The notes under the pieces were generated by a model. The model was not told where the DNA came from and searched no databases. It saw only the letters and a program-made list of their open reading frames with translations. Shown piece by piece: positions 4,321 through 43,697 of a DNA stretch of 64,000 bases. How positions within the stretch are numbered: the first letter of the stretch is position 1; each line of letters opens with the position of its first letter. Origin of the DNA: the human T2T-CHM13v2.0 reference genome, Homo sapiens. Location of the stretch: NCBI RefSeq assembly GCF_009914755.1, contig NC_060928.1. One strand, 5' to 3'. Both the position numbers and the translations under genes were made by a program.

Positions 4321-6880
4321 ATAGCCATATATAAACTTTTTCATCTTAAAATCCATTTTACTCCTAACTGTCAAGGAAAAACAGATGGTTCTAAACTCCT
4401 CCTTCTAGGCTCCTAGTGGTAAAGCAATTTGCAGGACAACCATGGAAGAAAGGTGCCCGCCTTCTCTAAGCTGACATGGCCCTGCTCCCTCCCTCAGTCT
4501 GTAGCCTCAGGAGGGGACTGCTTTGCCTGTGAGTGGGAGGGAGCTACCGTGTGAGTAGTTCCCAACAGACCATCTGAAGTCATTTTCCCAGGTGGCAGGA
4601 GAAACACAGAGCCAGACGTTACACTGCTTTTCAAAGAGGTAAGCTCTTTTTTTTTAACTGCTATTTAAAACTCCAAACAAAAATGAAGCTGTGGATGCAT
4701 GCAAGAATGAAGCCTAAGCAAAAATAACTCTTCAAAAAGGAAGCAGGTTTTTTGGAGAGGGTGTGTGTGTGAGGGCGGGGCGGGGGCGAGTCCTTCAATG
4801 TGGTTTTGAAATTAAGGTCCATGTTCTGTGATAATAAGCTATGTATCAATGAGAAAGGCTGAGATTATGACAAGAGGAAAAGGAGTAAAGGATTTGGCGG
4901 TTTAATCACGTTTCTATTCTTTTTTATATCTGCATCTTCTTTGAATGCAAGTATCAAGTTCTGTTTGGCTTTTGTGGAAAGCCATTTCCGAAGACCTGCC
5001 TTACTTGACTGTTTCTCCCTCTCTGGCTCTCCTGTTACCAACGTCCTAGAGTTGCCTCTGCTGCCCCAGCGAGGATGGCGACACAAACAGCGGTGGTGTC
5101 AGCGGACAGCGGTGGTGTCAGCGGTGACCGAGGCAGGGCCGAGACTCCAGGGCCCTTCGGGTTCAAGCTGTGCCCCCTCGCGCAGTTCAGCACCTGCCAG
5201 CACTTCCAAGTGTGTGATTGTCACGCTTGCCTGATTACTCCTTCCTTTGGGCTCCCATAGCAATTTGTACATTACTGTGGAATTGATCAAATTGCTTTAT
5301 AACTAGCTGTTTATGTGTCTTTAATCTGTGTCATTTTGGATGGCAGGAAATGCTCTTTCGGTAATTTTTTTGTCCACACTGACTGGAATACTGGTTGGCA
5401 CATAGTAGGTATTCAACAGTTTTTTATCGAGGGAATGAAAGCTCTCTAAACCACAGCAATCATTTGTAGACAAAGACTCTTAGGGTGTAATGTGATTTAA
5501 CATCTGATTTTTGGAAAATAGTTACTGAGATCATTCCGACAATAATAGAGTGCAATACCCTACCTTGAATAAAGGATATTTTACTCCTTTAGTGTGACAT
5601 ATAGGTGTTTGTTAAGCCCAGAGATTAACTTCCTTTACGACATGGCTGAGCTGGCCCAGCGGTCCATGTCAGGATGTGGTGCCCTGGTTTACTCCAGGTT
5701 CATAGCAAATCATTTTTCCTCTATGAAACCTCTTTCAGATGATCTTTGGAGCCTGTATCATATGTGCAGGGTCAAAAAACGGGCTGGATACAGTGTTCCA
5801 CTTCCAGGGAGCATCTCTAGTTTGAGCCCAGACCACCAACCCCCAGCAAGGCCCTAATCCATACAGTTAAATCCTTGGTAGTGACTTTGTCAGTTTCCAC
5901 CTCTGGATCTTTAAGGAAGCAGCACTTCCTGAATGTGGCATTGCTTTGTGGAGACAGTGACTGAGTAAGTTAGGGGTGATCCTTGCTACTGCTGGTGAGC
6001 CAGGCACCCAGAGAGAGTCTACCACTTGCTGCGTGAGCCTGGCCTGTGCTTTGTCCACCAAGCTGGTCTAAGCGGACTCACAGAAGGCAGAGGTATTGTG
6101 GAAGCTCTGATGACTGCCCCATCTCTCCTTTAGGACAGAAGCACTTACTCCACCAGCTTCTTGGAATGTTGGCAGCTGAAGGGGTGGCAAGCCTTTGCTG
6201 TAGCTACACCACAATTCAACTCCTTTGTCTACCCAATCCCACTTCCTTCAGTTCTCCATGGGTATTGATCTGGAGAGAAACTCTCAAACTTTCTTCTTGC
6301 AAATTTAACCTCAGCTCCGTTTCTTGGAGAACCTCACCTAAGACAGGTGGCAACTCTAACCCTCCTGCATACCTAAACTTACTGATAGATTTAGGGAATA
6401 AGAGAGGGAGACAGAGAATGAAGCTGATATCATCTAGACTCATGACAACTAGTTCTGCAGACTCATGTTCATCTGGGGCACTGACTCTCCCAGTTAGCAG
6501 GAGGACTCTAACACCAGCTTTTGCCTAAACCCTAGCCTCTTATAAGCTACAATCATTTAGTCACGACCATAGGGAACTTCCCGGACTGAGGTCTATAAAG
6601 CATTCATAAAAATTCAGATCTTCAGGAATCATAGCAGGATAGTAAAAAGGCAAAACTTTTACCTTTAAGGAAACTCAGATTCAAATTCTTGCTCCTGCAA
6701 TTATGAGATAATAACACCAGGTTGCTTATGTTGTCATCCCAATGTTCAGTGTCATCTGTGAATGATAACAAAAGCCACCTCAAATAACTCTTGTGAGGTT
6801 TAAGAGAAAATTATGCGAGACTTAAAATACAATCCGTGATATATAAGAACACACTGGATTTTTTAAATTGAGAGATTCTA

Positions 6881-7624: not shown

Positions 7625-8005
7625 ACTTCCTTCGTGGTACTCAAGGCTTCCTGGGAATTCCTTCGTCGTTCTCAAGGCTGTCCTGGAGCTTCCTTCATGG
7701 TACCCAGGGCTTCCTGGAGCTTCCTTCGTGGTACCCAGGGCCGTCCCGGGGCTTCCTTCATGGTTCTCAGGGCCGTCCCGGGGCTTCCTTCGTGGGGAGC
7801 TTCCTTCGTGGTACCCAGGGCCGTCCCGGGGCTTCCTTCGTGGTTCTCAGGGCCGTCCCGGGGCTTCCTTCGTGGTTCTCAGGGCCGTACTGGGGCTTCC
7901 TTCATGGGGAGCTTCCTTCGTGGTACCCAGGGCCGTCCCGAGGCTTCCTTCGTGGTACCCAGGGCCGTCCCGGGACTTCTTCGTGGTACTCAAGACTGTC
8001 CTGGG
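7625..8005. repeat. GC/CpG-rich minisatellite, 31-32 bp unit (gggcttccttcgtggtacccagggccgtcccg), about 11 units plus two 16-bp half-units
   Basis: The cttc(c)ttc core recurs 13 times. Half-units at ~7784 and ~7896 are 112 bp apart. Confidence 0.95.
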
Positions 8006-8129
8006 CACACGGTTTCTGTGCTCGGACACCCAATGCCTGAACTCAGCATCTGACACAGTTCCTGGGTTTCCAAGTGAGCAAACGCTTTCTCTTTGCTCTT
8101 GGGCATGAGGTCACAGCCTTCTCCTTTCC

Positions 8130-8909
8130 CGTCAGGACCGCATTCCCAGGTTTTCTCCATTTCTCTTTAAAGGAAAGTCGTCCGCGTTGCTTCCTGACCT
8201 GGAGTGTTTAGCCGCGGAAGACACTGGCCTCCTCTGGAGTCGCTGTGCAGAGCTGCGTCTTCTTCCCCCTGCACAGCGACAGCGCAGACTTGCTTCCCCC
8301 CATTCCCAACAGGCACCTTTTCTCTTTCAAAGGTCCCACATATACGACTTACAAGGCAGTAAAAGGGTAATATGTGTGCCAGTACCTTTCAGGTGAAGTG
8401 GCAAATAGGAGGGCGATAAGGGTTAAATACTTACCTGCGGCGGAACGCTGCAGTTTTTATTCGTTTACATAAACGAATACAATGTATATATTAGCTCCTG
8501 CATACGCGGGGAAAAGTGAGGGAAGAGGAGCGGGAGAGGTGGCGGCTGTGGGAGCGGAGCGAGCAGGTTCCCGGGAGGCTGCAGCACAGAGGCCCCACGC
8601 AGGCGGGCTCCCCGCGCTCGGCTCCCGCCTCCTCCCGGCCGTTCTCTGTTCTTGCACTTGGCCGCGCACGGACGCGCATCTCTCCTCGCTGCCGGTGGCC
8701 ATGCAGAAAGCTGGCTTAGTCTCCATCCTAGGTCCGCATCTCAGTTTTTTTGTTTGTTTTTGTCTTTTTTTTTTTTTTGTCACAAACCGAAGTGGGGAAA
8801 ACATTTGTTGGAGTTCGTTTTTTTTCACAAGGTCAGTGTGTGCCCATTACCCACTGGGAGGAGGACAATTTGAGCACACGATCACATTGAATGAGAAGAC
8901 GAAAGACGT

Positions 8910-10987: not shown

Positions 10988-11689
10988 CTCTATACTTTTT
11001 CTAAACATTTTACATAAAAATCACACCATGCAATATAAGGTCTTTGCGAATACGTTGTTTCCTTACTCTATACTTTTTCTAAACATTTTACATAAAAATC
11101 ACACCATGCAATATAAGGTCTTTGCGAATACGTTGTTTCCTTACTCTATACTTTTTCTAAACATTTTACATAAAAATCACACCATGCAATATAAGGTCTT
11201 TGCGAATACATTGTTTCCTTACTCTATACTTTTTCTAAACATTTTACATAAAAATCACACCATGCAATATAAGGTCTTTGCGAATGCGTTGTTTCCTTAC
11301 TCTATACTTTTTCTAAACATTTTACATAAAAATCACACCATGCAATATAAGGTCTTTGCGAATGCGTTGTTTCCTTACTCTATACTTTTTCTAAACATTT
11401 TACATAAAAATCACACCATGCAATATAAGGTCTTTGCGAATGCGTTGTTTCCTTACTCTATACTTTTTCTAAACATTTTACATAAAAATCACACCATGCA
11501 ATATAAGGTCTTTGCGAATACGTTGTTTCCTTGCTCTATACTTTTTCTAAACATTTTACATAAAAATCACACCATGCAATATAAGGTCTTTGCGAATACG
11601 TTGTTTCCTTACTCTATACTTTTTCTAAACATTTTACATAAAAATCACACCATGCAATATAAGGTCTTTGCGAATACGTTGTTTCCTTA
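10988..11689. repeat. Minisatellite, 78 bp x 9 near-identical copies
   Basis: Unit ctctatactttttctaaacattttacataaaaatcacaccatgcaatataaggtctttgcgaatacgttgtttcctta, with only three variant positions among copies. Confidence 0.98.
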
Positions 11690-14516: not shown

Positions 14517-14594
14517 TATCCTCAATAAAACCAATCTGGGACCCCCAACTCCATTCTATCCTCAATAAAACCAATCTGGGACCCCCAACTCCAT
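14517..14594. repeat. 40-bp tandem duplication
   Basis: tatcctcaataaaaccaatctgggacccccaactccat occurs twice identically with period 40. Confidence 0.95.
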
Positions 14595-14931: not shown

Positions 14932-15121
14932 TGGCAATTGTTCACACTTTTTTATATTCTGGCAATGAGTGCCAAAAATATTCCTTTCTCTTAGTAGATC
15001 TTTTTAATCAAAAATCTATAGTAAGTAATGCTTTATTTTGAACTAAATCATTTCAATAGGCAAGGTGACAGAACTGTGGCTGAAATCTGCACCATCAAAT
15101 TGACAATCAAATGTCTATTTT
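14932..15121 (+). repeat. Inverted repeat pair 1, left arm
   Basis: Reverse complement of 17677-17861. Manual alignment shows about 11 substitutions and 2 indels. Confidence 0.95.
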
Positions 15122-15706: not shown

Positions 15707-15947
15707 TTTCTCTTCCTTTCTTTCTTTCCTTCTTTCCTTCTTTCTTTCTTTCTTTCTCCCTTCCTTCCTTCCCTCCCTCCCTCCCTTCCTCCTTCCTTCC
15801 TTCCTCTCCTCTCCTCCTCTCTTTTTCTTTTCTTTCTTTCTTTCTTCTCTTTCTCTTTCTTCCTTTCTTTCTTCCTCCCTTCCTTCCTTCCTTCCTCTCC
15901 TCCTCTCTTTCTTTCTTTCCTTTCTTCCTTCCTTCCTTCCTTCCTCT
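15707..15947. repeat. Polypyrimidine microsatellite (CTTT/CCTT/CT mix)
   Basis: About 240 bp of only C and T, adjoining the tail of an antisense L1 fragment. Confidence 0.97.
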
Positions 15948-16074: not shown

Positions 16075-16383
16075 TTTTTGGGGGCGGGGGACAAGGTCTC
16101 CCTCTGTCTCCCAGGCTGGAGTACAGTGGTATTATCGTAGCTCACTGCAGCCTTGAACTCCTGAGCTCAAGCGACACTCCCACCTCAGGCTCCCGAATAG
16201 CTAGGACTATAGGTGTGTGCCACTGCACCCGGCTAATTTTTATTTTTTATTTATTTTTTTTGATAGAGGCTGGGTCTCTCTATATTGCCCCAGGCTGATC
16301 TTGAACTCCTGGGATCTGGTGATCCTCCCACATCAGCCTTCCAAAGTGTTGAGATTACAGGCGTGAGCCACTGCGCCTGGTCC
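16075..16383 (-). mobile_element. Alu (AluJ-like)
   Basis: tagctcactgcagccttgaactcctgagctcaagcga is a J-type motif. Diverged dimer. Confidence 0.9.
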
Positions 16384-17676: not shown

Positions 17677-17861
17677 AAAATAGACATTTTATTGTCAATT
17701 TGATGGTATAGATTTCAGCCACAATTCTGTCACCTTGCCTATTGAAATGATTTAGTTCAAAATAAGGCATTACTATAGATTTTTTATTATAAAGATCTAC
17801 TAAGAGAAAAGAACTTTTTGGCACTCATTGCTAGAATATAAAAAAGTGTGAACGATTGCCA
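17677..17861 (-). repeat. Inverted repeat pair 1, right arm
   Basis: Reverse complement of 14932-15121, e.g. ttctgtcaccttgcctattgaaatgatttagttcaaaataa versus ttattttgaactaaatcatttcaataggcaaggtgacagaa. Confidence 0.95.
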
Positions 17862-20949: not shown

Positions 20950-22715
20950 CAAATGTAAAAAAAGTTAACAATTAATGGAAGTAGAATATGGGTATTCTTT
21001 TATGATTTTTACAGTTTTTCTGAAGGTTTGAAACTTTTCAAATTAAAATAGTTAGAAAACATAGTAAGTGGGATAGTAGTGTATATACAGTGCTACAAGA
21101 ATGCAAGGTAATTATATTCAAGATAATGTATCTAATTTTATATGTCTGAGGCCCCACATATAAGCTGTATTGGTGCCAAGCGCCCACAGATTCTGAAGAA
21201 CGGCACTGGCCACACACCTCCACAGGAGACATAAGAGGTGGCCCAGACCAGATTCAGTTCATTAGCCCCTTGCAACCCACGGGAGAAAGAGGGAAGATTA
21301 TTCTGAGGCACAGAGTGGTTAGGTAACTTGTCCAGAGTCACACAGCGAGTAGCAGAGCCAAGGAGTGGAAAATCACACTTTTCCCAGTGCACTTTCTCTG
21401 TTTAACTGCTCCTCTACGCGTCCTGAATAATGATGTGTTGAACTCAGTTTGAATGTTTCATGTTAGATTGTTTTGATTTTTTTCTATTTTTAAAGTTTCA
21501 TTTGGAATAAAAATGTCCAAAGAAACCCAAATATATTTGGATAATTAGTAGTGAAATAGCCAAATTGAAACTTTGCTGATCTGATTACTTCTGCTGCCAT
21601 AATTATTGTGATTTGTACTCCGTAATGATTATAAACGCTTTGTCTGGTCAATGATTTTGAAGACTCTCAGAGCAATCAGATCTATTATGCTGCAACTTGG
21701 ATGGTTAAACAAATTTTAAGTTTTAGAACACATAAAACATACATCTTAAAAGAAACAAAACCCATTCATGCATAATTAGTAGGTCTGAGATTAAAAAATG
21801 AAAAAAATGGTGTTGAGCACACTTTCTCCAAGTCCTCCTCCAAGTGGCTTTTCTCACGGGAACAACATCACAAGAAAGACAGCAGATCCACCTGAGGCAT
21901 GACGAGACAGTTCCTTTTGAGATTAGGGCAATATATGTGTTTTAGAAGATATTCAAAAATAAAATCATAAATATTATCTTTCTAAGAAAGATAAGGGACA
22001 GTCACTGAGTTAGACAAAAATATTTTGGGAAGAAAATGGTGAAAACTGAAGTACCTTTATAAAAATACTGTAAAATGTGAGTGTTTTGTTATTAGAAGAA
22101 AGAGGAAACTGCATAGGTGGAGAGAAGCTGGGCTCTCCACGTGAAGTAATGGTGCTCTTCTGGATTCTGCCATTTCGGGTAAACCAGTCTTGCGTTTTTC
22201 CTCTGATATTTACCTCTTCTCACTGTGAAGATTCAGCCTTCAAAGCAGAACCTGACAGGTTGTGCTCTGTTAATCTGGCCTTCTGGGGGGCTGTCAATAG
22301 CAGTTGAATAATAGCAACGACTCTGTGAGCTCAGGCTGCCCTCTGCTCTCATTCGTCTCAGGCAAGTGGCAGCAGAGAATGCGCATGAGCCATTCAGAAC
22401 ATTTCACAAATAACTTACACTCGGAGTCTTGAATAATGCTACTTTTTTTTTAAGTTTTATTATGTTCATCATGAAGCTTTAAAAAGTCTTTTGCATTTGA
22501 GAGGAAAAATTATCATGTGAAAAATGTCCAGTTCTGCATCTCGATTATTTAAATGGTAATCCAAAGAAGCTCCTTCTCAGAAGCAATATTATTTTACACG
22601 TGCCCTGCCAGAGGCCACTGTGCATTGTCCCAATCAAAAATCTTGAAGGGATTAGTGTAGCGAAGAGTGTGCAATTAACTATTTCTATTTGATATGTTCA
22701 TTTTGATATTTATAA

Positions 22716-23066
<351 letters not shown>

Positions 23067-24915
23067 TCACTTTCTAATCGTTACTTCTCAGTTGTGAGGC
23101 GTGTTAGGGCCTCCACAGACAGGTAAAGGAAAAACGGGTACAGATGGAATCGGGGCTAATGGGATTCTCCTTGAGGAGTGCCGTCTGTACCTGGGAAAGG
23201 CTGATGTTTTGTACAACAGTGTCCGGGAGCAGTGGAAACCCTGGATACAACCGTGGTAGTGTTGCTGTCCCAGAGGTTAACCTGTTGAGTAGGACACGGA
23301 AGCAGAAAGTCACTAGACAGGCGTAAAGATGTGGTTAGAGAATGTTATCTTCTTAATTGCGGGGAGATCTGCCATGAAGTGAGGCCCCAGCTGGCCGCGG
23401 GAGGGTGGAGGGAATATTTCCAGCCCTTGAGGCTGGAGGTTTGTAAATGCTTACTGGATTTGGGGTCAAGATAAACAGGCTACATTTCAGGGTAAAATCC
23501 CAGTCCCAGTGGCAGAAATAGGTTCTCTTGGGAATACAAGGAAAAGGCCAGTCCTCAGGACAAAAAGGGTATGACCGGGCTTTGCTTTACGCATAAGCAG
23601 ACACTGGATTGTAGATACTGGGTTCAGGACAGGAAATAAATCCCCTTGTCCTCCGCGGTAGTCCTGGGATGCACTGTCAGCTGGGACTGGATCAGGGCTT
23701 TGGTTAGACTAGATTTTCAGGTTGAGGACGCTGGGTACCAGGCACAGCAGCAGCAGGCAGGAGCTGATACACGGTAAGATTTCAAGGGTCAGTGAATTAC
23801 CTATTTCTGTCTCAGCCCCCAGAGCCTCACACAGCATTAGCACAAAGTGGATGCTCCAAATGGGTACTGAGTTGACATCAGTGCATCGGACAGCACTTTT
23901 CCCTAAGTATACCTAAGTAAATAGTGCAAATCCATGTCTAGAATGCCCATATTGCCTGTTTAGGATGGTTATAGGATCTACTCAAACTCAATACCTTATT
24001 TCTTCTCCTAGTTTTGAGAATGGTCTTTGAAAATATTTTCTTTTAGTGTTCCACTGAATGCACTCAAATAATAACATTAATTTACTTTAAAATTGAATTA
24101 AACCCCATACACATTTCTCTACACCTGTAGATTGGTTATCAAGAATAAAATTGTGGTGAAGTTTGCCACACTGAAATATTAGCATTATGGAAACAATATC
24201 CAACACATTCAGAGTTAGACCCTGCTCTTATTATTGAAATGAGATATTTTTGATGTATACAAATGATGCTACTGAAAACGATTGGAAGACATGCTCCTTG
24301 AACATTAATAGGAAGATTTGTCCCACGTAACTCATGTTCCCTCAACTCCTCTGCCTTGTGAATGCTGCCTGTGCTTACAGATAGTGATGAATTGTGTCAT
24401 TAAGGGATACTATGTTTCTTTCCACTTGCCCACATACAACAATTCACAATTCATTATAACCAAGAATATGTATCTTCCATGGCATTCCATGTTTCTTCTT
24501 GCATAAGGGTTCTGTTAACTAGGATTTCATTTGCAAAATTTGCACTTTCTAAAAATTTCTTAGTAATTGTGAAGTTTAACCCACTCTTATCGCATATTTG
24601 AAAACCAAAATTCAGAGAACTGGAGTAACTTTGCCTGAGGTCAAACAGTTGCTATTGTGTGGGTCTTGAGATTCTATTTTTCAGACTAGCTTTTTTCACC
24701 TTTTGTATCATCTACCTCGGATTTGCAAACCATGGATAAAATATTTTTTGACAACATATAACTTACTCTTTATAAGTATAATTTAAGATAAATATAATAA
24801 CTTAATAAGTATAATATAATTTATATTATATTGTAAATATTAGAAATATATTATAAATAGATAAAATAAATATTACTCTACAGGTGTAGAATAATTTATA
24901 AACCCTAAGGCAATA

Positions 24916-25140
24916 TAATTTATGAAACCTTAAGGCAATATAATTCCTTGAGGCATTATTAATGATATAAACTTGAATTCAATTCACATGACAATGATGA
25001 CCATTTTAAAATACCTTTCGAAGAGATGCCTGAACAGGGCCAATTGCCGGCTGTGTTGTCACACAAAATATGGCTTAAATAAAGCTAACCTGAGTTTTCA
25101 GAATATTTGAGTATGCTAACATAATGTCTCCAAAGGAAAA
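24916..25140 (+). repeat. Inverted repeat pair 2, left arm
   Basis: Reverse complement of 25824-26048. Manual alignment shows about 10 substitutions and 2 single-base indels over 225 bp. Confidence 0.96.
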
Positions 25141-25823
25141 CTATATATATTTGACAAAATATATATATTTTTCCTATAAAATGTATTATAGATAATATGT
25201 ATATCTGAAACAAATAGATTTGCATGATCCCTACTGTGTACTTTTCCCCCTTTTTGACCGTTTAGTTATCTAAGTCCACTGTCAATTTATATAACAGCAA
25301 CCTAACTATCTGAAATACTCTGCAACAAGATAAGTCCCAATGAAATTAAATACTGAAAGGAAATATTTTTTAAAAGTAGCCAAATAGCAGATGTCTTCTT
25401 AATTTCCACATTTGTGGCATTCTGTGGAGAAATTCTCCAGATAAATGTTTACAATGTTTAATCCTCACATGAAGGTAACTTTGACGTAGACACTTCCCAT
25501 ATTCGTCCATATAAGAAACTGAAAGATTAATGCCACCACTCCAGAAATACTGATTTAATCAACATTTTTATTAAATAAAATTGATTAAAACTGGTCTTCT
25601 TTCTCATGACCTCATCTCTTACAATGTAACTACATTAACATGTATAGGGGCATAGTGTTCTCAATGCTATCTTCAGATCTATATCGTCAATTACTTACTG
25701 ACCATTAAGCTCACTATTAATTTAATACCAACAAATAGAAGAGATATAATTATCAAGCATTATCAATTAATATGTACCTAGGGCCACAGAATCATCAATT
25801 TATAGATCTCTGTTTATCTGTCA

Positions 25824-26048
25824 TTTTCCTTTGGAGACATTATATTAACATACTCAAATATTCTGAAAACTCAGGTTAGCTTTATTTAAAACCATATTTT
25901 GTGTGACAACACAGCCGGCAATTGGCCCTGTTCAGGCATCTCTTTGAAAGTATGTTAAAATGGTCATAATTGTCATGTGAATTGAATTCAAGTTTATGTC
26001 CTTAATAATGCCTCAAGGAATTATATTGCCTTAGGGTTTTATAAATTA
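25824..26048 (-). repeat. Inverted repeat pair 2, right arm
   Basis: ccatattttgtgtgacaacacagccggcaattggccctgttcaggcatctctt is the exact reverse complement of the left-arm core. Confidence 0.96.
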
Positions 26049-27013
26049 CTCTTATAAAGATAAGAAGAAATTAGCTGAAAATAACTGAGCCTATACTATG
26101 GCATACTAAACAATATCTAGCTTATCAGATAGTTAATTTGTGCATATAAAATGAATGTAGAATTATGTATGAGGTTAATTCAACTATCTGTGTCTGTAGC
26201 CATTCATCTACATATTCTAGCTCTTGTTCACATATCCAATACATATTTATTGAGCACCTACTTGACTCCAGGCACATTGCTGGGACAGGGAATATGACAT
26301 GAATGAAACAGACAAGGCGTCTGCCCTCAAAGGTCCTGTTCAGTGAGAGGGGTGTTGCTGACTCCAGTTCCTGCTCCCTTGGGAGGCATCATTCATCAGT
26401 GGAGATATCCTTGCCCCAGAGCTTGGGTCTCCTCAAATGTTGTGCTCTTTGACAGGTCCAAGAATGAACAAAACTGGCCTGGGAATTAAAATAATTTGCC
26501 TTCCCTGGGTGTATATTTACATGTATACGTAGTGGCTAATAAATTAGGTGTTTCAACCTAGACACCCAGGCACAATTGATAACAATAATCAAAGTAAAGT
26601 TTGACACAGACCACAAAAAGAAGATTATTACAAATCTGAACTTTTAACTTCAAAACTGGTTGCATGACTTTTGGGTCTCTTTGCAGGATTCCTTCACCAA
26701 AGATCAAAATGCAAAAGGTGGAGGAAGACTGGAAAGGAAGTTGTGAGGAATGCAGAGAGGATGTGGAGAGGAATGAAGGGTGATGTTCCGCTTAGGGAGT
26801 CATAGCACCTCCACCCGAGGCCACTGAGGGGGGCTTTCAAGGATGCCTTGGCAAATTTGCAGGTAAAGGGCCACAGGGCACTGATGCCACAATCATGCCT
26901 GAGAAAGCCGCAGGGGCTTATGCGGAAGAGAGCTCTGTACCCATGCAAGTTAATAGGAGTGTGACTACTCAGCTCAGAGATAATCATACTGGTTCCACTT
27001 AAAAATGAATTGT

Positions 27014-27325
27014 GGCCAGGTGCAGTGGCCCATGCCTCTAATCCCAACACTTTGGGAGGCACAAGTGGGATGAGTGCTTGAGGCCAGGAGTTTAAGACCA
27101 GCCTGGGCAACATAGCAAGACTCCATTTCTTGAAAAAATATAAAAACAAGCCCAGGATGGTGGCGTGCACCTGTAGTCTCAGCTACTTGGGAGGCTGAGG
27201 CAGGAGGATCACTGGAGCCCAGGAGAGCAAGGCTACGGAGAGCCAGGATCATGCCTCTGAACTCCAACCTGAATGACAGAGTGAGAGTGTATCTCTAAAA
27301 ACTAACTAAATCAAACTAGTAAAAA
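27014..27325 (+). mobile_element. Alu (AluJ-like)
   Basis: gcttgaggccaggagtttaagaccagcctgggcaacatagcaagac motif, TSD aaaaatgaat. Confidence 0.9.
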
Positions 27326-28367
27326 TGAATCTTGCCTAAGGGGTTTTGCTTCCAGGGTAAGGGAACCCCTGTGATCACAGGCTGGCAGGATCATCATGAA
27401 CAGAAGCTGGAATAGGATTGGAAGCTTCAGGCTCAAGGAAAGGCACTGCCCGTGGCACAGGAGTTGCAATTGTGAGGCTTAGTAGAGGCGCCTTTAAATA
27501 ACTCACAAAGCGTCTGTGCAAGAAAGTCAGCTCGCAAACCTCTGCCAGGTCTGGAAAGCAGGGCATCTACTTGTGACCGTCACGATCATGTAAGAAGCAC
27601 AAACAGTCATCTGGCCACTTTGATATCCAACCTTCCCCAACCTCAGCTGATGGAAGCAGGAAGGACACTTCCCCCTAGCCCTCCTAAGTATAGGCTGAGG
27701 GCAGGGACTAAGATTTAACTTCAAATCAAGTTAGCGCTTTCTAACATCATCTGGAAAAGGAAATTTTACATTACTGGAGATCGTATTTGCTACTTGAAGG
27801 TTTCATGGGCCTTTCTATTATCTAAGAGTGATCCAAAAAGTAGTGGCAATTGTCTGCATTGGCACTTAAGGGCAGGGACTGGACCGCAAGTATTGAATGG
27901 GTTTCATGGGACAGTGGGAAGCAAAAATAGAAGTGCTTATATCATTCATTCATTCATATTAGCGTGCACTTATTGAAGACTCACTGTGTGCCAGGCACTG
28001 TTCTAGGTACTGGATGTTTGCCTATGGGAAAAAATATGTAGAAACATCCCCAGATTCACAGCATGTTATAGCAGGGAGTGTGTGTTCAACGTCCTGAAGA
28101 TCATGTTCACACACAGATGGATAGACGGTAGACGACGGAGTGAGTAACTCACACAATCTATTCATTTCTCTATCACCTCTCTCAAGTTTTCATGGAAGCT
28201 AGGCTGGTGGAACTACAGGAAATGTGATTCTGGTTCTCTCTGTAGATTATAGTGAGGTTGTCTATGTCCTATGCTGGTCTTCACTTAAATCGTCAGATTC
28301 TTGTATCATGATTTCTAAGTAAATTGCAGAACTTTTACAAAGTTCCACTTTAAAAATACTGCTCTTC

Positions 28368-28990
28368 CAGCACAATTTGCCATTGCAAAAATATGGAACC
28401 AACCTAAATGTCCACCAACCAACAAGTGGATAAAGAAAATGTGGCATTTATACATCACGGAATACTACTCAGCCATAAAAAGAAATGAAATAATGGCATT
28501 CGCAGTAACTTGGATGGAGCTGGAGGCCATTATTCTAAGTGAAGTAACTCAGGAATAGAAAACCAAATATAGTGTGTTCTCACTTATAAGTGGGAGCTAA
28601 GCTATGAGGATGCAAAGGCATAAGAATGATGTAATGGGCTTCAGGGACTTGGAGGGAAGGGTGGGAGTGGGCTAGAAATAAGAGACTAAACATTGTGCAA
28701 GGTGTACACTGCTTGGGTGATGGGTACACCAAAATCTCAGAAATCACCACTAAAGAACTTTTCCATGTAACCAACACCACCTCTCCTCCAAATGCTATTG
28801 AAATAAAAATTCTAAAAGCAGGAAAACATCCTAAAAATGTTTCAAAATCCTTTCTCTTTACTATGCACTAATTGGCATAGTAATTGGCACTCCCTATCCA
28901 AACACTAGGTCAAACTCTGAAAGTTATTTTGTCAATTTTCTATATATACATACTTCTTAAATAAAAATGTAATTTACAAAATAAAATAAA
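28368..28990 (+). mobile_element. 5'-truncated L1PB-like element (28368-28809) plus ~170 bp of non-L1 3' sequence inside one TSD
   Basis: L1 end ctcagaaatcaccactaaagaact..ccatgtaaccaacaccacct..tattgaaataaaaa. TSD aaaatactgct(c/t)ttc at 28353-28367 and 28988-29002. Confidence 0.85.
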
Positions 28991-31900
28991 ATACTGCTTT
29001 TCTTCAATTATGTGTATAACCAAACTGTAGTTTTCCTAATTTACTTTTGAATATGTTTTGCTACAAGTTTCTGCTTAAAATTGTTTCTGCAGGGTTTATT
29101 ACATAAACATGTGCCATTTTCTTGCTCTTTCATAGGCAAGACCATTGAGAAGATATTTGGACCCTGGTGGCAGTTTTTTATGGGTTCCTCAGCAGGGATG
29201 AATTAGCGCAATTTGTGTTACATGCAATACAAGCAGGTTCTGGGTGGGTGATTTCCTTTGATCACTTTCCTTCCCCCACCTCTCCTGCTGCCCGCAAATA
29301 CTCATACACAGCCTGCCTTGCAGGTCCTATTAGCACAGAAATGGAAGGAAGAGCTCTGACTTGTGGGAAAATGTTCATGTGGAATGCTCTACGACCACAT
29401 GAAAGCTCTGAACTCTAGTGTATAGCCGTCTGTCTGAAAAATTTGCCAGAAAATTACTTTATCTTCATTTATGTGTGGCAGAACAAATGTAAAACTAATG
29501 GAATCCAAATTTTAAAGTAGGAAAATGTGATCATTTAGTAGAAGGAAAGTGAAAGCATTTTTTATTTAAACATTAAAATATGATTGATTGACAGTTAAAA
29601 TGATACATTTATAAAATATAGAAAACTTAAAATTCTGCTGCTACGTATTTGCTTATTAAAAACTTGAAAAGGATCATGTCTGTTTTGTACTCATAACATT
29701 GTTGCTGTCACTCAGTTTCAATTCCAGAAGCTTCATTCTATTGATGTTCTTTACACTGATATTTGAAATGCGTGTTTTAGTTCTTACGTGTAAGATAAAT
29801 GTTTTAGTTTATGCAATTTCAATGTTTTAGTTTATGCAATTTAGCCATTATTAAAAAACAATTTGGTTGAACAGTGTTTATTACATATTCAACCACTTTT
29901 ACTTCAGAATATTGATAGCTAACCTCTATCAATTTAAGCCAGTTCAGCAAAAATACTATTGCTTTCTTACGACAGACCAGATACAGTACTAGTTTTTGTG
30001 TTAGCTAAAAAATAGTACTGCCTCTGAGGAGCTTGTCATCCAACATGTTGTAAGGAAAGAGAGATGTAAATTTTTAATTTACACTTTTATAATGCATAGT
30101 GTATACATTTATAACTTCAGTAAAATGTGTAAGGTCTGTGGCAAACATGGACAGATTGTTACTTATCTCTTCCTAGTTTCTAATCTATATCCAATTTCTA
30201 TTAATAACAGAGAGAGCACTTGGACATGAGACAAGAGGCTATGATAAGAGGTATGCATAAAAATGATGGTGGGGTGTTAGAAGGATTGTAAATGCTGATG
30301 GTACACATGTGGACTGTGAAGTGAAGATGTGAAGCTTCAGGAAAGATGCGTTAATAAACAACATGTATTAAAATACTGATTAAAATCATCTGATTAATCC
30401 AACAGTAAATGCTCTAGAGGCATTAAGTTGAAACTCTCAGAATTATTATCTACTTGAATCTTGTTAATTTCTCAAATACTTCTAATATATTATTTACTAC
30501 TTGTTAGTTTTTAAAATCACAAGAGTAATGTTATTTGCACATTTATATATATATACAGCTAAAGCCAAACTAACGAAATAATAAATCTTTTCTTCTTCCA
30601 ACAATCTGTCCTCTCTTCCTGACCTTACTTGATTGTTAATGATGATGCAGAAGTAATTCTCCGGAGAGACTGCAATAGTACAGTGCCTGGTTTTGAAGTG
30701 CATATTCAGACAAAATTCCCTTTGCTCACCACTCGGAGCTAGGATTCTGAGAATCACACACATCAAACACATATTTCAGGAAAAGAGACTATGTCAGCCA
30801 GCCACGATAGAAGACACGTATGTAGTGAAGGGAGTCCACACTCTCAAAGCCGAAGCACTCAGGAAAATAGAAACTTATCTGTTATGGGGCCAGGAAATTT
30901 AAGAACATAAAATATCCACAGAACTTGGCTTCATGTAAGCATCAACATTATATAAAAGACAATAATACATGTCATCAGTTTCAGGAGTAAAATTAAGAGA
31001 GTTTTGATTGGATGAGCCCACAGCGATTGAAATCAACCGACCCATAGGCTTTTGAAGGCCAGAATGATTTCCTATCCAGAGAGCATAAGTAAATCAGAAA
31101 TTTGCAGTTGTGTGTGTGAGCCAGCATTTCAATATAAATAACATTAAATTAGGCATGGCTACTCTACTACATATTGCCATATCTTCGTCTCACCTTCCGT
31201 TTTCTATTTCTTTCTTCCCTCCAGGTAAACAAGATAGAATCAGGGAATCTTAAGACACGTGTGTGTCTGCGTGGAGGTGAGGTCACAGGCAGAGAAGGCA
31301 GTGGAGTGTCCGACTGGGTGTAAGAGTCCCGGTGAGAGTCCGAGGAACCCATAGAGACGATGGGAAGGTGGAATTACACTCCTTTTACACATCACATTTC
31401 ACACTCGTTTTCGAGTTCTAATTTTTAGGAGCTCCATGGCATTTTTTGAATATGACTATAATTTGCTTCTCAGAAGCATTAAGGCAAATATTTTGAGGGA
31501 TGTTCTATGTGTAGCTTTTTTTGTGACTTTTCATTCTTGGGCAGAGGTTTCTACAATCGCCAGCTGGTTGGCTATCTATGCATCTCTCAGTCATTGTTGT
31601 CACTTTCCCAATGACAGGAAAGTATGATGCTATGTGACAGCCCATTGTTCTGATCTTCCTTCAACCTTTCTTTACAAGATATTTCCTCATATAATTTATT
31701 AATCTAAAGTTGAATACACTCTATGGAACAGTTCCTAATACTTTTAGACAAAGTGTATCATATCAATTTCATACCTCTACTTATCTGAACCTAAAATATT
31801 TTCTTTAAGCCTCTTGTCAGCAGTTCCTTATTCTAGGTAATATTTGGGTAAAAAGCTATAAGAATGAAATGTGGAAATCATTGTAGAGGTAAAGGCTTTT

Positions 31901-35469: not shown

Positions 35470-35660
35470 GCACCTCCAGCTCTGGAGCATCTTGGGGTTC
35501 TAGGGGCACCTCCAGCTCCGGAGCATCTTGGGGTTCTAGGGGCACCTCCAGCTCCGGAGCATCTTGGGGTTCTAGGGGCACCTCCAGCTCCGGAGCATCT
35601 TGGGGTTCCAGGGACACCTCCAGCTCCGGAGCATCTTGGGGTTCTCGGGGCACCCAGCTC
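35470..35660. repeat. Minisatellite, 36 bp x ~5.3 (gcacctccagctccggagcatcttggggttctaggg)
   Basis: Direct tandem copies with few variants. Confidence 0.96.
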
Positions 35661-36559
35661 CTGCTTCACTGGATTTGCCGACTCAGGTCATGGGGTGTAA
35701 ATGACCCTGCTCTGCTTCAGCTGCTCTTTGTCCTCCAAATATTTGGGTTTTCTATCTGCACTTTTCTCTTTTCTCGTTGTCTTTGCTCTAGGTGTTAACA
35801 ACTTTTACATTTTATTATTTTCATTTAAAAACATTTGAAGATAGAAGAGATTTGTGTGAGAGAGTAGAGTTTGTTTTTTAACAAGAAGCAAATTTATCCA
35901 TTATTTATTTGGTTAGGAGACTTTAATACACATTTTAACTCATTACAGATCATCACTTAGGATGTGAAAAGTTTTGTGGGACTTATAGGGAATTTTTATG
36001 CTCCCTTAACGGAACAATTCAAATACATAACATCGAGCCCTATAAATCGCATGGCTTTTCAAGTAACCATAAGATATTTATATAATGTTTCCATACTCAG
36101 GAACACAGACAAAACTTCAATGTTTTCTGAAACAGAAATAGCATACACTACTCCTCTAAACATGATGAAAACAATCTATAACCAAAAGAAAAACATTACC
36201 TGAATTCTTATTATTTGTATGAATGACAATGAAAAAAATAGTAAGAAACATAGAGAAAATAAAATAATTATTGGAGTAGCTTTGGGTGAACTAACGCAAA
36301 CGTAAAAGTTGATAAAATGGATGATTTTCATGAAAAACATCAATTAGAATAATAAAATAAATATATTCAATTTTGACCAAATTCAAACACTACAAATAAA
36401 AGCTCTTTTCCACTAAAATCAAGTCCAGTTTCCCTCTTTTTAATAATAAAATATTACTAATTTAATGGTTTCTTCAATGATTTATAGACTATATGTAACA
36501 TTTAATTCCTAATATTTTTATAATAAATTGTGGTCCATGTTTCTTTAGTGGGATGGCTG

Positions 36560-42755: not shown

Positions 42756-43300
42756 CCTTTTTTTATGTCTTTTTTTTTGTCTTCAACTTTTATTTTAAGT
42801 TCCAGGGCACATATGCAGGATGTTCAGGTTTGTTACATAGCTAAATGTGTGCCACAGTGTTTTGCTAGACAGATCAATCCATCATCTAGGTATTAAGCCA
42901 AGTATCCATTAGCTGTTCTTCCTGATGCTCTCCCTTCTCACATGCACCAACAGGCCCCAGAATGTGGACACGTGTTCCCCCCATATGTCCATGTGTTCTC
43001 ATTGTTCAGCTCCCACTTGTAAGAGAGAACATGTGGCATTTGTTTTTCTGTTCCCACAATAGTTTACTGAGGATAATGGCTCCTATCTCCATCCATGTCT
43101 CTGTAAAGGACATGATCTCATTCCTTTTTATGACTGCATAGTATTCCATGGTGTATATGTACCACATTTTCTTTATGTAGTATATCATTGAAGGGCATCT
43201 GGGTTGATTCCATGTCTTTGCTGTTGTGAATAGTGCTGCAATGAACATGCATGTGCATGTATCTTTATAATAGAATGATTTATATTCCTTTGGGTATATA
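42756..43300 (-). mobile_element. Antisense 5'-truncated L1PA 3' end nested in the older L1
   Basis: T-tail at the left, and the minus strand translates YPKEYKSFYYKDTCTCMFIAALFT...MFSLTSGS*. Confidence 0.92.
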
Positions 43301-43304
43301 TATA

Positions 43305-43697
43305 TAAATTGGATAAATAAATGCAGTACATATACACCATGGAATACTACAGAGCAATAAAGAAGAACAAAATTATGGCTTTTGCAACAATATGGATGCA
43401 ACTGGAGGCCTTATCCTGTGTTAATTAATGCAGAAACAGAAAACCCAATACCACATGTTCTCTTTTCTAAGTGGGAGCTAAATGAACACTTGGTACACAC
43501 GGACTCAAGACGAGAACGATAAATACTGGGGGTTCCACGAAGCGGCAGAGAGACAGAGGGGCAAGGCTGGAAAAACTACCCCTTGGGTCCTGTGTTCACT
43601 GTTTGGGCGACAGCCTCAGCTGAAGCCCGAACCTCAGTATCAAGCACTATATCCACATGAAAAACCGACACATGTACCCCCTGAATCCGAATAAAAG
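43305..43697 (+). mobile_element. L1 3' end (older L1PA-like), sense
   Basis: tggataaa...atatacaccatggaatactac...aagtgggagctaaa...acatgtacccctgaatccgaataaaag. Confidence 0.9.

What the first reader, a model, noticed from the sequence alone, without database searches (positions are those of the whole stretch)
24916..26048. 225-bp ~95%-identical inverted repeat of apparently unique DNA around a 683-bp spacer
Seen: 24916-25140 is the reverse complement of 25824-26048 with about 10 substitutions and 2 one-base indels, including a perfect core of ~50 bp. I do not recognise the arms as Alu, L1, LTR or MITE, and I see no flanking TSD. Inference: an inverted duplication made by template switching, possibly marking an inversion of the spacer. 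It could support recurrent inversion or arm-to-arm gene conversion, and would form a long dsRNA stem (ADAR/Dicer substrate) if transcribed.
Basis: partly seen in the sequence, partly recalled or inferred. Interest (0 to 1): 0.8.

Follow-up and report, generated by a model that had tools for sequence, protein, structure and literature searches.

The report
Old small inverted duplication, unique DNA
A 225-base stretch of single-copy human DNA is present twice in opposite orientation about 0.7 kb apart in a gene desert on chromosome 4, most likely the neutral scar of one ancient copying error rather than a mobile element or a working gene.

Summary
Bases 24916-25140 are the reverse complement of 25824-26048: 214 of 226 columns match, with 10 substitutions, 2 one-base gaps and a 53-bp perfect run. 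The inverted alignment scores 388 against at most 31 in 30 shuffles.

Arm and spacer occur nowhere else in the 3.1-Gb T2T genome. The same tool does find 70-83% identical matches for the neighbouring AT-rich tract. I found no target-site duplication, no Pfam match and no Rfam match in or next to the arms. It is therefore a local inverted duplication, not a transposon and not an Alu or L1 pair.

Arm divergence is JC 0.046 ± 0.015, about 20 My at 1.0-1.2e-9 per site per year. The differences are scattered as chance predicts, so nothing points to gene conversion. A T2T-coordinate inversion callset of 41 genomes lists nothing here. No transcript is annotated.

Whether the spacer was flipped, and whether template switching made the copy, needs outgroup genomes that these tools lack.

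A second unrelated inverted duplication of similar age lies 7 kb upstream (14932-15121 / 17677-17861).

Verdict: a real but ordinary member of the known class of human long inverted repeats. Interest is low.

The parts
24736..24886 (.). 87% A+T low-complexity tract directly abutting the outer edge of the left arm. It is a possible replication-stalling or breakage site (inference).
   Evidence: One search gives A+T of 0.87. One search gives 178 genome-wide matches at 70-83% identity, confined to query positions 837-983 (window about 24736-24882). (D2) shows an internal 33-bp-spaced direct repeat.
24888..24945 (+). Outer end of the left arm. It holds a 25-bp tandem duplication (copies at 24900-24920 and 24925-24945) that the right arm has only once.
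   Evidence: D3 shows 2 copies, 95% identical, spacing 25; I4 shows 24900-24920 is 100% complementary to 26019-26039. The sequence was read.
24916..25140 (+). Left arm, the contiguous core alignment.
   Evidence: 214 of 226 columns identical to the reverse complement of 25824-26048.
25141..25823 (.). 683-bp spacer of single-copy DNA at about 30% G+C. Its left edge starts with a short (TA)n run. Weak inverted similarity may continue to about 25189/25791.
   Evidence: 1 of 1 candidate in the genome, which is itself (query 25150-25814). G+C 0.30; weak inner extension with 3 gaps, not significant on its own; the longest stop-to-stop ORF lying within 24888-26053 is 62 aa, and 0 of 8 ORFs hit Pfam.
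25824..26053 (-). Right arm, the reverse complement of the left arm. The core is 25824-26048, with about 5 further bases of outer extension.

Best explanation
This is a one-off local inverted duplication of about 230 bp of ordinary single-copy intergenic DNA. It was made roughly 20 million years ago (wide error) in an ancestor of apes. Most likely a replication or repair error made it: a nascent 3' end stalled or broke at the adjoining 87% A+T tract, folded back on its own strand about 0.7 kb behind, copied about 230 nt, and then returned to the original template. That is a fold-back or template-switch event, giving arm-spacer-arm' without flipping the spacer. Since then the two arms have drifted apart independently. 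The left arm gained a 25-bp slippage duplication and a (TA)n run. The structure does nothing today. Shown: it is real, unique, local, old and unhomogenised. Inferred: the fold-back mechanism, the role of the A+T tract and the neutrality.
For: The arms are each other's only relatives in the 3.1-Gb genome (2 of 2 candidates; spacer 1 of 1). The tool does detect 70-83% identical matches of 60-140 bp and 82-96% identical matches of 44-86 bp, so copies in that range would probably have been seen. A sensitive local BLAST against 264 kb (the window plus 20 random 10-kb stretches) finds only the two arms, whereas Alu and L1 arms get 160, 9 and 7 hits. The boundaries are abrupt and lack a target-site duplication. 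Divergence is JC 0.046 ± 0.015 with 7 transitions to 3 transversions, giving 19-23 My at 1.0-1.2e-9 per site per year. The differences are placed as chance predicts (P = 0.44 for the longest run). The A+T tract touches the left arm. Short-range template switching in great-ape genomes (PMC7954356) and fold-back inverted duplications with a spacer (PMC3907307) are described processes; for both papers I saw only the title and start of the abstract in the listing.
Against: No outgroup sequence was available. So neither the ancestral copy number nor the spacer orientation is known, and fold-back cannot be told apart from a staggered-break micro-inversion. Copying 225 bp at a distance of 683 bp is larger than the short-range events the title of PMC7954356 refers to. 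The link to the A+T tract is circumstantial. Neutrality is inferred from the absence of annotation and of family matches, not from expression or conservation data. The age depends on the rate: 0.5e-9 per site per year gives 46 My. Any past conversion would make the age an underestimate.
Confidence: 0.5

Rival explanations
1. The arms are a breakpoint duplication of a micro-inversion. The ancestral spacer of about 0.7 kb lay the other way round. One of the two breaks was staggered by about 230 bp, and fill-in plus end joining inverted the spacer, leaving the staggered segment duplicated in inverted orientation on both sides (arm, flipped spacer, arm').
For: The structure is exactly what a one-sided staggered break predicts. 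Ranz et al. 2007 (PMC1885836, passages read) found inverted duplications of ancestrally unique sequence at 17 of 29 Drosophila inversions. Their median length was 321 bp (range 46 bp to about 1.9 kb), and in 12 cases only one breakpoint region was duplicated. The arm length here falls in that range. The arms are unique DNA with abrupt ends.
Against: That evidence comes from large fly inversions, not from sub-kilobase human ones. Unwinding 230 bp for a staggered break is itself a difficulty the authors note. Nothing in the human sequence alone shows that the spacer was ever inverted. No second interleaved repeat pair was found.
Confidence: 0.3
2. This is an active inverted repeat. The arms still recombine, so the spacer toggles between orientations in the human population or among apes, and the arms are kept alike by gene conversion.
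For: Inverted repeats do mediate recurrent human inversions (Aguado et al. 2014, PMC3961182, abstract and passages). The arms are still 94.7% identical.
Against: The repeats in that study are 1.6-24 kb long, at least 7 times longer than these arms. The longest uninterrupted identity here is 53 bp. From memory, not from a call, that is below the roughly 130-230 bp of perfect identity reported as needed for efficient mammalian homologous recombination. The 12 differences are spread as chance predicts, with no conversion tract. The T2T-coordinate callset of 373 inverted regions in 41 genomes has no entry beginning 19041, 19042 or 19043.
Confidence: 0.05
3. This is a decayed DNA transposon with long terminal inverted repeats (a foldback, MuDR-like or MITE-like element), or two opposed copies of one old repeat family.
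For: The arm-spacer-arm layout of about 1.17 kb resembles a non-autonomous element with long terminal inverted repeats.
Against: There are only 2 copies of the arm and 1 of the spacer in the genome, with sensitivity controls. There is no target-site duplication. 0 of 8 ORFs match Pfam at E <= 0.1. Arms 95% alike would be far younger than any known human DNA transposon activity (recalled: none for about 37 My). Two independent insertions of one family would not be closer to each other than to every other copy.
Confidence: 0.03
4. This is a hairpin-RNA gene. The locus is transcribed through both arms, and the duplex of about 225 bp serves as an ADAR or Dicer substrate.
For: Either strand folds with 218-225 arm positions paired. 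The arm-arm duplex energy is -348 kcal/mol.
Against: No transcript is annotated over the locus; the nearest lncRNA ends at 5590 (hub annotation). No Rfam match lies inside 24888-26053 at E <= 1. The arms diverge at a neutral-looking level and with a neutral-looking 7:3 transition-to-transversion ratio. No expression data could be consulted.
Confidence: 0.03

Closest known systems
Human long inverted repeats (LIRs) as catalogued by Lirex and by Wang & Leung
   Same: Arms are over 30 bp, identity is over 85% and the spacer is under 2 kb, the criteria quoted in PMC4319165 and PMC5414712. The published chr4 contig table lists similar cases, such as 183 bp / 3.8% mismatch / 1090-bp spacer and 122 bp / 4.7% / 811 bp.
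   Different: It sits at the long end of the class. In parts 1-2 of 4 of that table (positions up to 4.24 Mb), only 4 entries have arms of at least 140 bp with at most 10% mismatch. Arm length divided by spacer is 0.33, far from the value above 16 and the spacer under 20 bp quoted there as strongly destabilising. From memory, the 2009 genome-wide paper (not held) says about half of such repeats are unique sequence.
Inversion-associated inverted duplications from staggered breaks (Ranz et al. 2007, PMC1885836)
   Same: It is an inverted duplicate of ancestrally unique, non-repetitive DNA a few hundred bp long. It flanks a segment, and only one breakpoint region is duplicated.
   Different: Those flank large, documented fly inversions. 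Here the flanked segment is 683 bp and its inversion is unproven.
Fold-back / template-switch inverted duplications (PMC3907307; PMC7954356)
   Same: It is an inverted copy separated from its template by a short single-copy spacer, with no repeat needed to mediate it.
   Different: The human fold-back cases in PMC3907307 are large duplications, and the template switches in PMC7954356 are short-range. This one lies between the two scales. For both papers I saw only the listing with the start of the abstract.
Inverted-repeat-mediated recurrent polymorphic inversions (Aguado et al. 2014, PMC3961182; npInv, PMC6044046)
   Same: The geometry is the same: two inverted homologous arms around a unique segment.
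   Different: The known mediating repeats are 1.6-24 kb long. npInv reports a near-linear relation between repeat length and inversion size. No inversion is recorded at this locus.
DNA transposons or MITEs with long terminal inverted repeats; inverted Alu pairs
   Same: The layout is arm, spacer, arm.
   Different: It is single-copy, has no target-site duplication and has no Alu/SRP-like match. The inverted pairs found in the 200-kb random sample were all multi-copy Alu or L1.

Membership tests
Long inverted repeat (LIR) of the human genome | Arm over 30 bp, arm identity over 85%, internal spacer under 2 kb (criteria quoted in PMC4319165 and PMC5414712) | tested here: met
   225-bp arms, 94.7% identity, 683-bp spacer; criteria read.
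DNA transposon / MITE with terminal inverted repeats | Multiple copies in the genome | tested here: not met
   The arm gives 2 of 2 candidates and the spacer 1 of 1.
DNA transposon / MITE with terminal inverted repeats | Target-site duplication directly outside the two termini | tested here: not met
   Flanks were read. No direct repeat lies at about 24887/26054, nor at 24915/26049.
DNA transposon / MITE with terminal inverted repeats | Transposase remnant, or a match to a curated transposon consensus | tested here: inconclusive
   0 of 8 ORFs of 46-87 aa hit Pfam at E <= 0.1. No Dfam or RepeatMasker library is available here.
Inverted Alu or L1 pair | Arms belong to a high-copy retroelement family | tested here: not met
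   Rfam SRP/Alu-like matches lie only at 22780-23065 and 27148-27297, outside the arms. The arm has 2 hits in the 264-kb local database, against 160 for an Alu arm.
Segmental duplication | At least 1 kb and at least 90% identity (definition as quoted in PMC13629690, for 1-50 kb SDs; the 1-kb floor is recalled) | tested here: not met
   Identity qualifies at 94.7%, but the length is only 225-253 bp.
Inversion-breakpoint inverted duplication (staggered breaks) | Inverted duplicate of ancestrally unique sequence, 46 bp to about 1.9 kb long, flanking the inverted segment | tested here: met
   Unique, inverted and 225-253 bp long.
Inversion-breakpoint inverted duplication (staggered breaks) | An outgroup shows one copy only and the intervening segment in the opposite orientation | not testable with these tools
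   No primate or other human assembly is held. Only the window's own genome can be searched.
IR-mediated polymorphic or recurrent inversion | Both orientations of the spacer observed among individuals or species | tested here: inconclusive
   Supplement Table S1 of PMC10150506 (373 inverted regions, 41 genomes, T2T coordinates) has no number beginning 19041, 19042 or 19043. I did not establish how sensitive that callset is to a 0.7-kb inversion inside 225-bp repeats.
Cruciform-prone palindrome (PATRR-like) | Near-perfect arms with little or no spacer | tested here: not met
   The spacer is 683 bp and the arms are 5.3% different. The quoted labile range is a spacer under 20 bp.
microRNA or other curated structured RNA | Match to an Rfam covariance model | tested here: not met
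   Scanning 22000-29000 at E <= 1 gave 7 matches, all in the two Alu-like stretches and none in 24888-26053.

The most novel reading that the evidence does not exclude
The locus is an unannotated hairpin-RNA gene. Read-through transcription of arm-spacer-arm yields a duplex of about 225 bp that ADAR edits or Dicer cuts into endogenous small RNAs. Together with the similar-age inverted duplication 7 kb upstream, it would mark a small cluster of primate-born double-stranded-RNA sources in the 4q35 gene desert.
Probability: 0.03. Interest if true: 0.5.

Novelty: new member of a known kind. Interest (0 to 1): 0.12.

Why it matters
It matters little by itself. It is one more instance of the small, unique-sequence inverted duplications that replication or repair errors leave in primate genomes.

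It has modest value as a clean, datable test case. With ape T2T assemblies, one alignment would show whether such structures arise with or without inversion of the spacer, and whether 225-bp arms 0.7 kb apart undergo any conversion over about 20 My.

The second, similar-age inverted duplication 7 kb away raises a small question: do such events cluster, either through one multi-switch accident or through a locally error-prone region? That could be tested genome-wide.

Tried and rejected
1. Transposon or Alu/L1-pair origin was rejected on genome copy number, the absence of a target-site duplication, Rfam and Pfam.

2. A remnant of a larger palindrome was rejected. No further inverted similarity appears in 24000-27000 beyond weak 21-27-nt pairs, and the arm ends are abrupt.

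3. The two repeats of the window being related, or being the two interleaved breakpoint duplications of one inversion, was rejected. The IR1 and IR2 arms score 13 against a shuffle mean of 15. The pairs are nested side by side, not interleaved.

4. The perfect 53-bp core as a conversion tract was rejected (P = 0.44).

5. My own base-rate estimate stayed underpowered. Only 20 random 10-kb stretches could be fetched. Their 3 inverted pairs (at least 80 bp, at least 85% identity, spacer at most 5 kb) were all multi-copy, so 0 unique-DNA repeats in 200 kb. I used the published Lirex table instead (parts 1-2 of 4 read). That table does not say which entries are transposon-derived, is limited to a 2-kb window, and may split arms at indels.

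7. Wang & Leung 2009 is not held, so what I say of it is recalled.

8. Searches for a described inversion at the locus found none. I made no search of GRCh38-coordinate catalogues because I could not lift the coordinates over.

Full report
**Observation**

The repeat finder gives three abutting inverted pieces that together span 24916-25149 and 25815-26048. A gapped alignment joins them into 24916-25140 against the reverse complement of 25824-26048. That alignment has 226 columns: 214 matches, 7 transitions, 3 transversions and 2 one-base gaps, so 94.7% identity. The longest perfect run is 53 bp and the spacer is 683 bp. The last nine bases that the repeat finder adds on the inner side (25141-25149) match only at every other base and are not part of the arm. 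Chance is excluded. The whole-genome search scores arm against arm at E = 2.9e-93. The inverted local alignment scores 388, against a mean of 26 and a maximum of 31 in 30 shuffles.

**Anatomy**

- On the outside the arms run slightly further than reported. The right arm continues to about 26053.
- The left arm continues to about 24888 once a 25-bp tandem duplication is allowed for. Its copies lie at 24900-24920 and 24925-24945, and the right arm carries the unit only once. The outer copy is 100% complementary to 26019-26039 (I4).
- This is a slippage event that happened in one arm after the duplication.
- On the inside the left arm is followed by a short (TA)n run. Beyond it there is weak, gapped similarity to the right arm's inner flank, to about 25189/25791. 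I do not count this as shown.
- Directly outside the left arm lies a 150-bp tract of 87% A+T (24736-24886).
- The arms are 32% G+C, the spacer 30% and the window 40%.

**Not a mobile element**

- The arm finds exactly two places in the 3.1-Gb T2T genome, itself and its partner (2 of 2 candidates, even at E <= 10). The spacer finds only itself, 1 of 1.
- The tool's text warns that very common words are skipped and that only the best candidates are scored, so I looked for positive controls. The stretch at window 26985-27070 returns 82-96% identical matches of 44-86 bp, with 2670 candidates of which 40 were scored. The A+T tract returns 178 matches at 70-83% identity.
- Copies of the arm down to roughly 75-80% identity would therefore probably have been seen. 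Relics at 65-70% identity might not.
- A sensitive local BLAST (word 9) against 264 kb, made of the window plus 20 random 10-kb stretches, again finds only the two arms. An Alu arm gets 160 hits and two L1 3'-end arms get 9 and 7.
- The right flank 26054-26960 has one weak match elsewhere.
- There is no direct repeat at the outer ends.
- Within 24888-26053 no stop-to-stop ORF exceeds 62 aa. 0 of 8 ORFs of 46-87 aa in and beside the element match Pfam at E <= 0.1.
- Rfam at E <= 1 gives 7 matches in 22000-29000. All lie in two Alu-like stretches (22635-23065 and 27148-27297), and none lies in the element.
- Even if the underlying DNA were an undetectably old repeat, the arms are far closer to each other than to anything else. 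So the event is a local duplication.

**Age and arm evolution**

The Jukes-Cantor distance between the arms is 0.046 ± 0.015. That corresponds to 19-23 My at 1.0-1.2e-9 per site per year, with a 95% range of about 7-37 My, or 46 My at 0.5e-9. The rates are recalled values. The 12 differences are placed as chance predicts: 44% of random placements give a perfect run of at least 53 bp. The transition-to-transversion ratio of 7:3 is unremarkable. Nothing indicates recent homogenisation.

**Functional readings**

*Recurrent inversion.* The inverted repeats shown to drive recurrent human inversions are 1.6-24 kb long (PMC3961182, abstract and passages). npInv reports a near-linear relation between repeat length and inversion size (PMC6044046, passages). 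Here the longest uninterrupted identity is 53 bp. The T2T-coordinate callset of Porubsky et al. 2023 (PMC10150506) covers 373 inverted regions in 41 genomes, and its main text confirms that Table S1 uses T2T-CHM13 v1.1/v2.0 coordinates. Its three supplementary files contain no number beginning 19041, 19042 or 19043. Sheets of its supplementary file 2, including Table S1, do list chr4 rows. I did not establish how sensitive that callset is to a 0.7-kb inversion.

*DNA instability.* The arm-to-spacer ratio is 0.33 and the spacer is 683 bp. The range quoted in the Lirex paper from Lobachev et al. as labile is a spacer under 20 bp and a ratio above 16.

*Double-stranded RNA.* Either strand of 24887-26062 folds with 218-225 arm positions paired, and the arm-arm duplex energy is -348 kcal/mol. 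That is true of any such repeat. The hub annotation shows no transcript nearer than 5590. I could consult no expression or editing data.

**How unusual it is**

The same self-BLAST scan (at least 80 bp, at least 85% identity, spacer at most 5 kb) finds exactly two inverted pairs in the 64-kb window. It finds three in 200 kb of random genome, all of them Alu or L1.

The published Lirex list for a chr4 contig (PMC5414712, Table S1) gave a rough base rate. I read parts 1-2 of 4, covering positions up to 4.24 Mb. It has 4 entries with arms of at least 140 bp and at most 10% mismatch:

| Arm length (bp) | Mismatch | Spacer (bp) |
|---|---|---|
| 183 | 3.8% | 1090 |
| 143 | 7.6% | 95 |
| 308 | 0% | 207 |
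| 168 | 0.5% | 1573 |

That is roughly one per megabase. The table does not say which entries are transposon-derived. The object is therefore uncommon, of the order of thousands per genome at most, but it belongs to a described class.

**A second case in the window**

Bases 14932-15121 are the reverse complement of 17677-17861. The alignment is 190 columns with 8 transitions, 3 transversions and 5 gap columns, giving JC 0.062 ± 0.019. The arm again has only two copies in the genome. There is no target-site duplication, and the arm is unrelated to the first repeat (score 13 against a shuffle mean of 15). Its 2555-bp spacer holds a (CTTC)n array at 15712-15945 and one Alu-like element at 16086-16381.

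The two distances overlap within error. At about one such repeat per megabase, a second within 64 kb is mildly unexpected, of the order of 5%. This is a post hoc figure, and the published table does not cover spacers above 2 kb. The two pairs lie side by side, not interleaved. They are therefore not the two breakpoint duplications of one inversion.

**Mechanism**

Two known routes give arm-spacer-arm' from unique DNA.

- *Fold-back or template switching.* A stalled or broken nascent strand anneals to itself or to the complementary template a short way back, copies a stretch, and returns. The spacer keeps its orientation.
- *A staggered break at one end of a micro-inversion.* The spacer flips. 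Ranz et al. 2007 (PMC1885836) describe this for 17 of 29 fly inversions, with duplicates of median length 321 bp, often on one side only.

The human sequence alone cannot separate the two. I favour the first (0.5 against 0.3) for two reasons. It needs no unwinding of 230 bp. And an 87% A+T low-complexity tract, a plausible stalling site, abuts the left arm exactly. Both reasons are inference.

**Verdict**

The mechanism cannot be tested here. The functional readings have no support. This is a new instance of a known kind, and interest is low.

Noticed in passing
window 14932-15121 and 17677-17861: This is a second inverted duplication of unique DNA: 190-bp arms at about 92% identity (JC 0.062 ± 0.019) around a 2555-bp spacer. 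The arm has only 2 copies in the genome and there is no target-site duplication. The arm is unrelated to the first repeat but of similar age. The spacer holds a (CTTC)n array at 15712-15945 and an Alu-like element at 16086-16381.
   Followed up: partly
window 10988-11689: A tandem array of 9.0 copies of a 78-bp A+T-rich unit, 99% matches and no indels. This is a very homogeneous minisatellite and probably length-polymorphic. It is not in the hub's list of masked stretches.
   Followed up: no
window 7626-7992: A G+C-rich tandem array with nested periods of 32, 48, 63, 80 and 112 bp at 81-98% matches. It lies just before the RefSeq enhancer annotated at 8101-8601.
   Followed up: no
window 35470-35661: A 36-bp unit repeated 5.4 times at 94% matches, G+C-rich.
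   Followed up: no
window 24736-24886: An 87% A+T low-complexity tract. Its relatives elsewhere in the genome occur in local clusters and on both strands, for example several overlapping matches at C19:7.02-7.04 Mb and C10:114.976 Mb. It looks like a dispersed A+T-rich minisatellite-like sequence.
   Followed up: partly
window 43005-43482: A compact inverted structure inside repeat-masked DNA: arms 43005-43083/43404-43482 (78%) and 43090-43169/43319-43398 (75%), with only 149-320 nt between them. It is probably two opposed copies of one repeat family or a palindromic element.
   Followed up: no
window 14517-14594: A perfect 2.0-copy tandem duplication of a 40-bp unit, about 340 bp upstream of the left arm of the second inverted repeat.
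   Followed up: no
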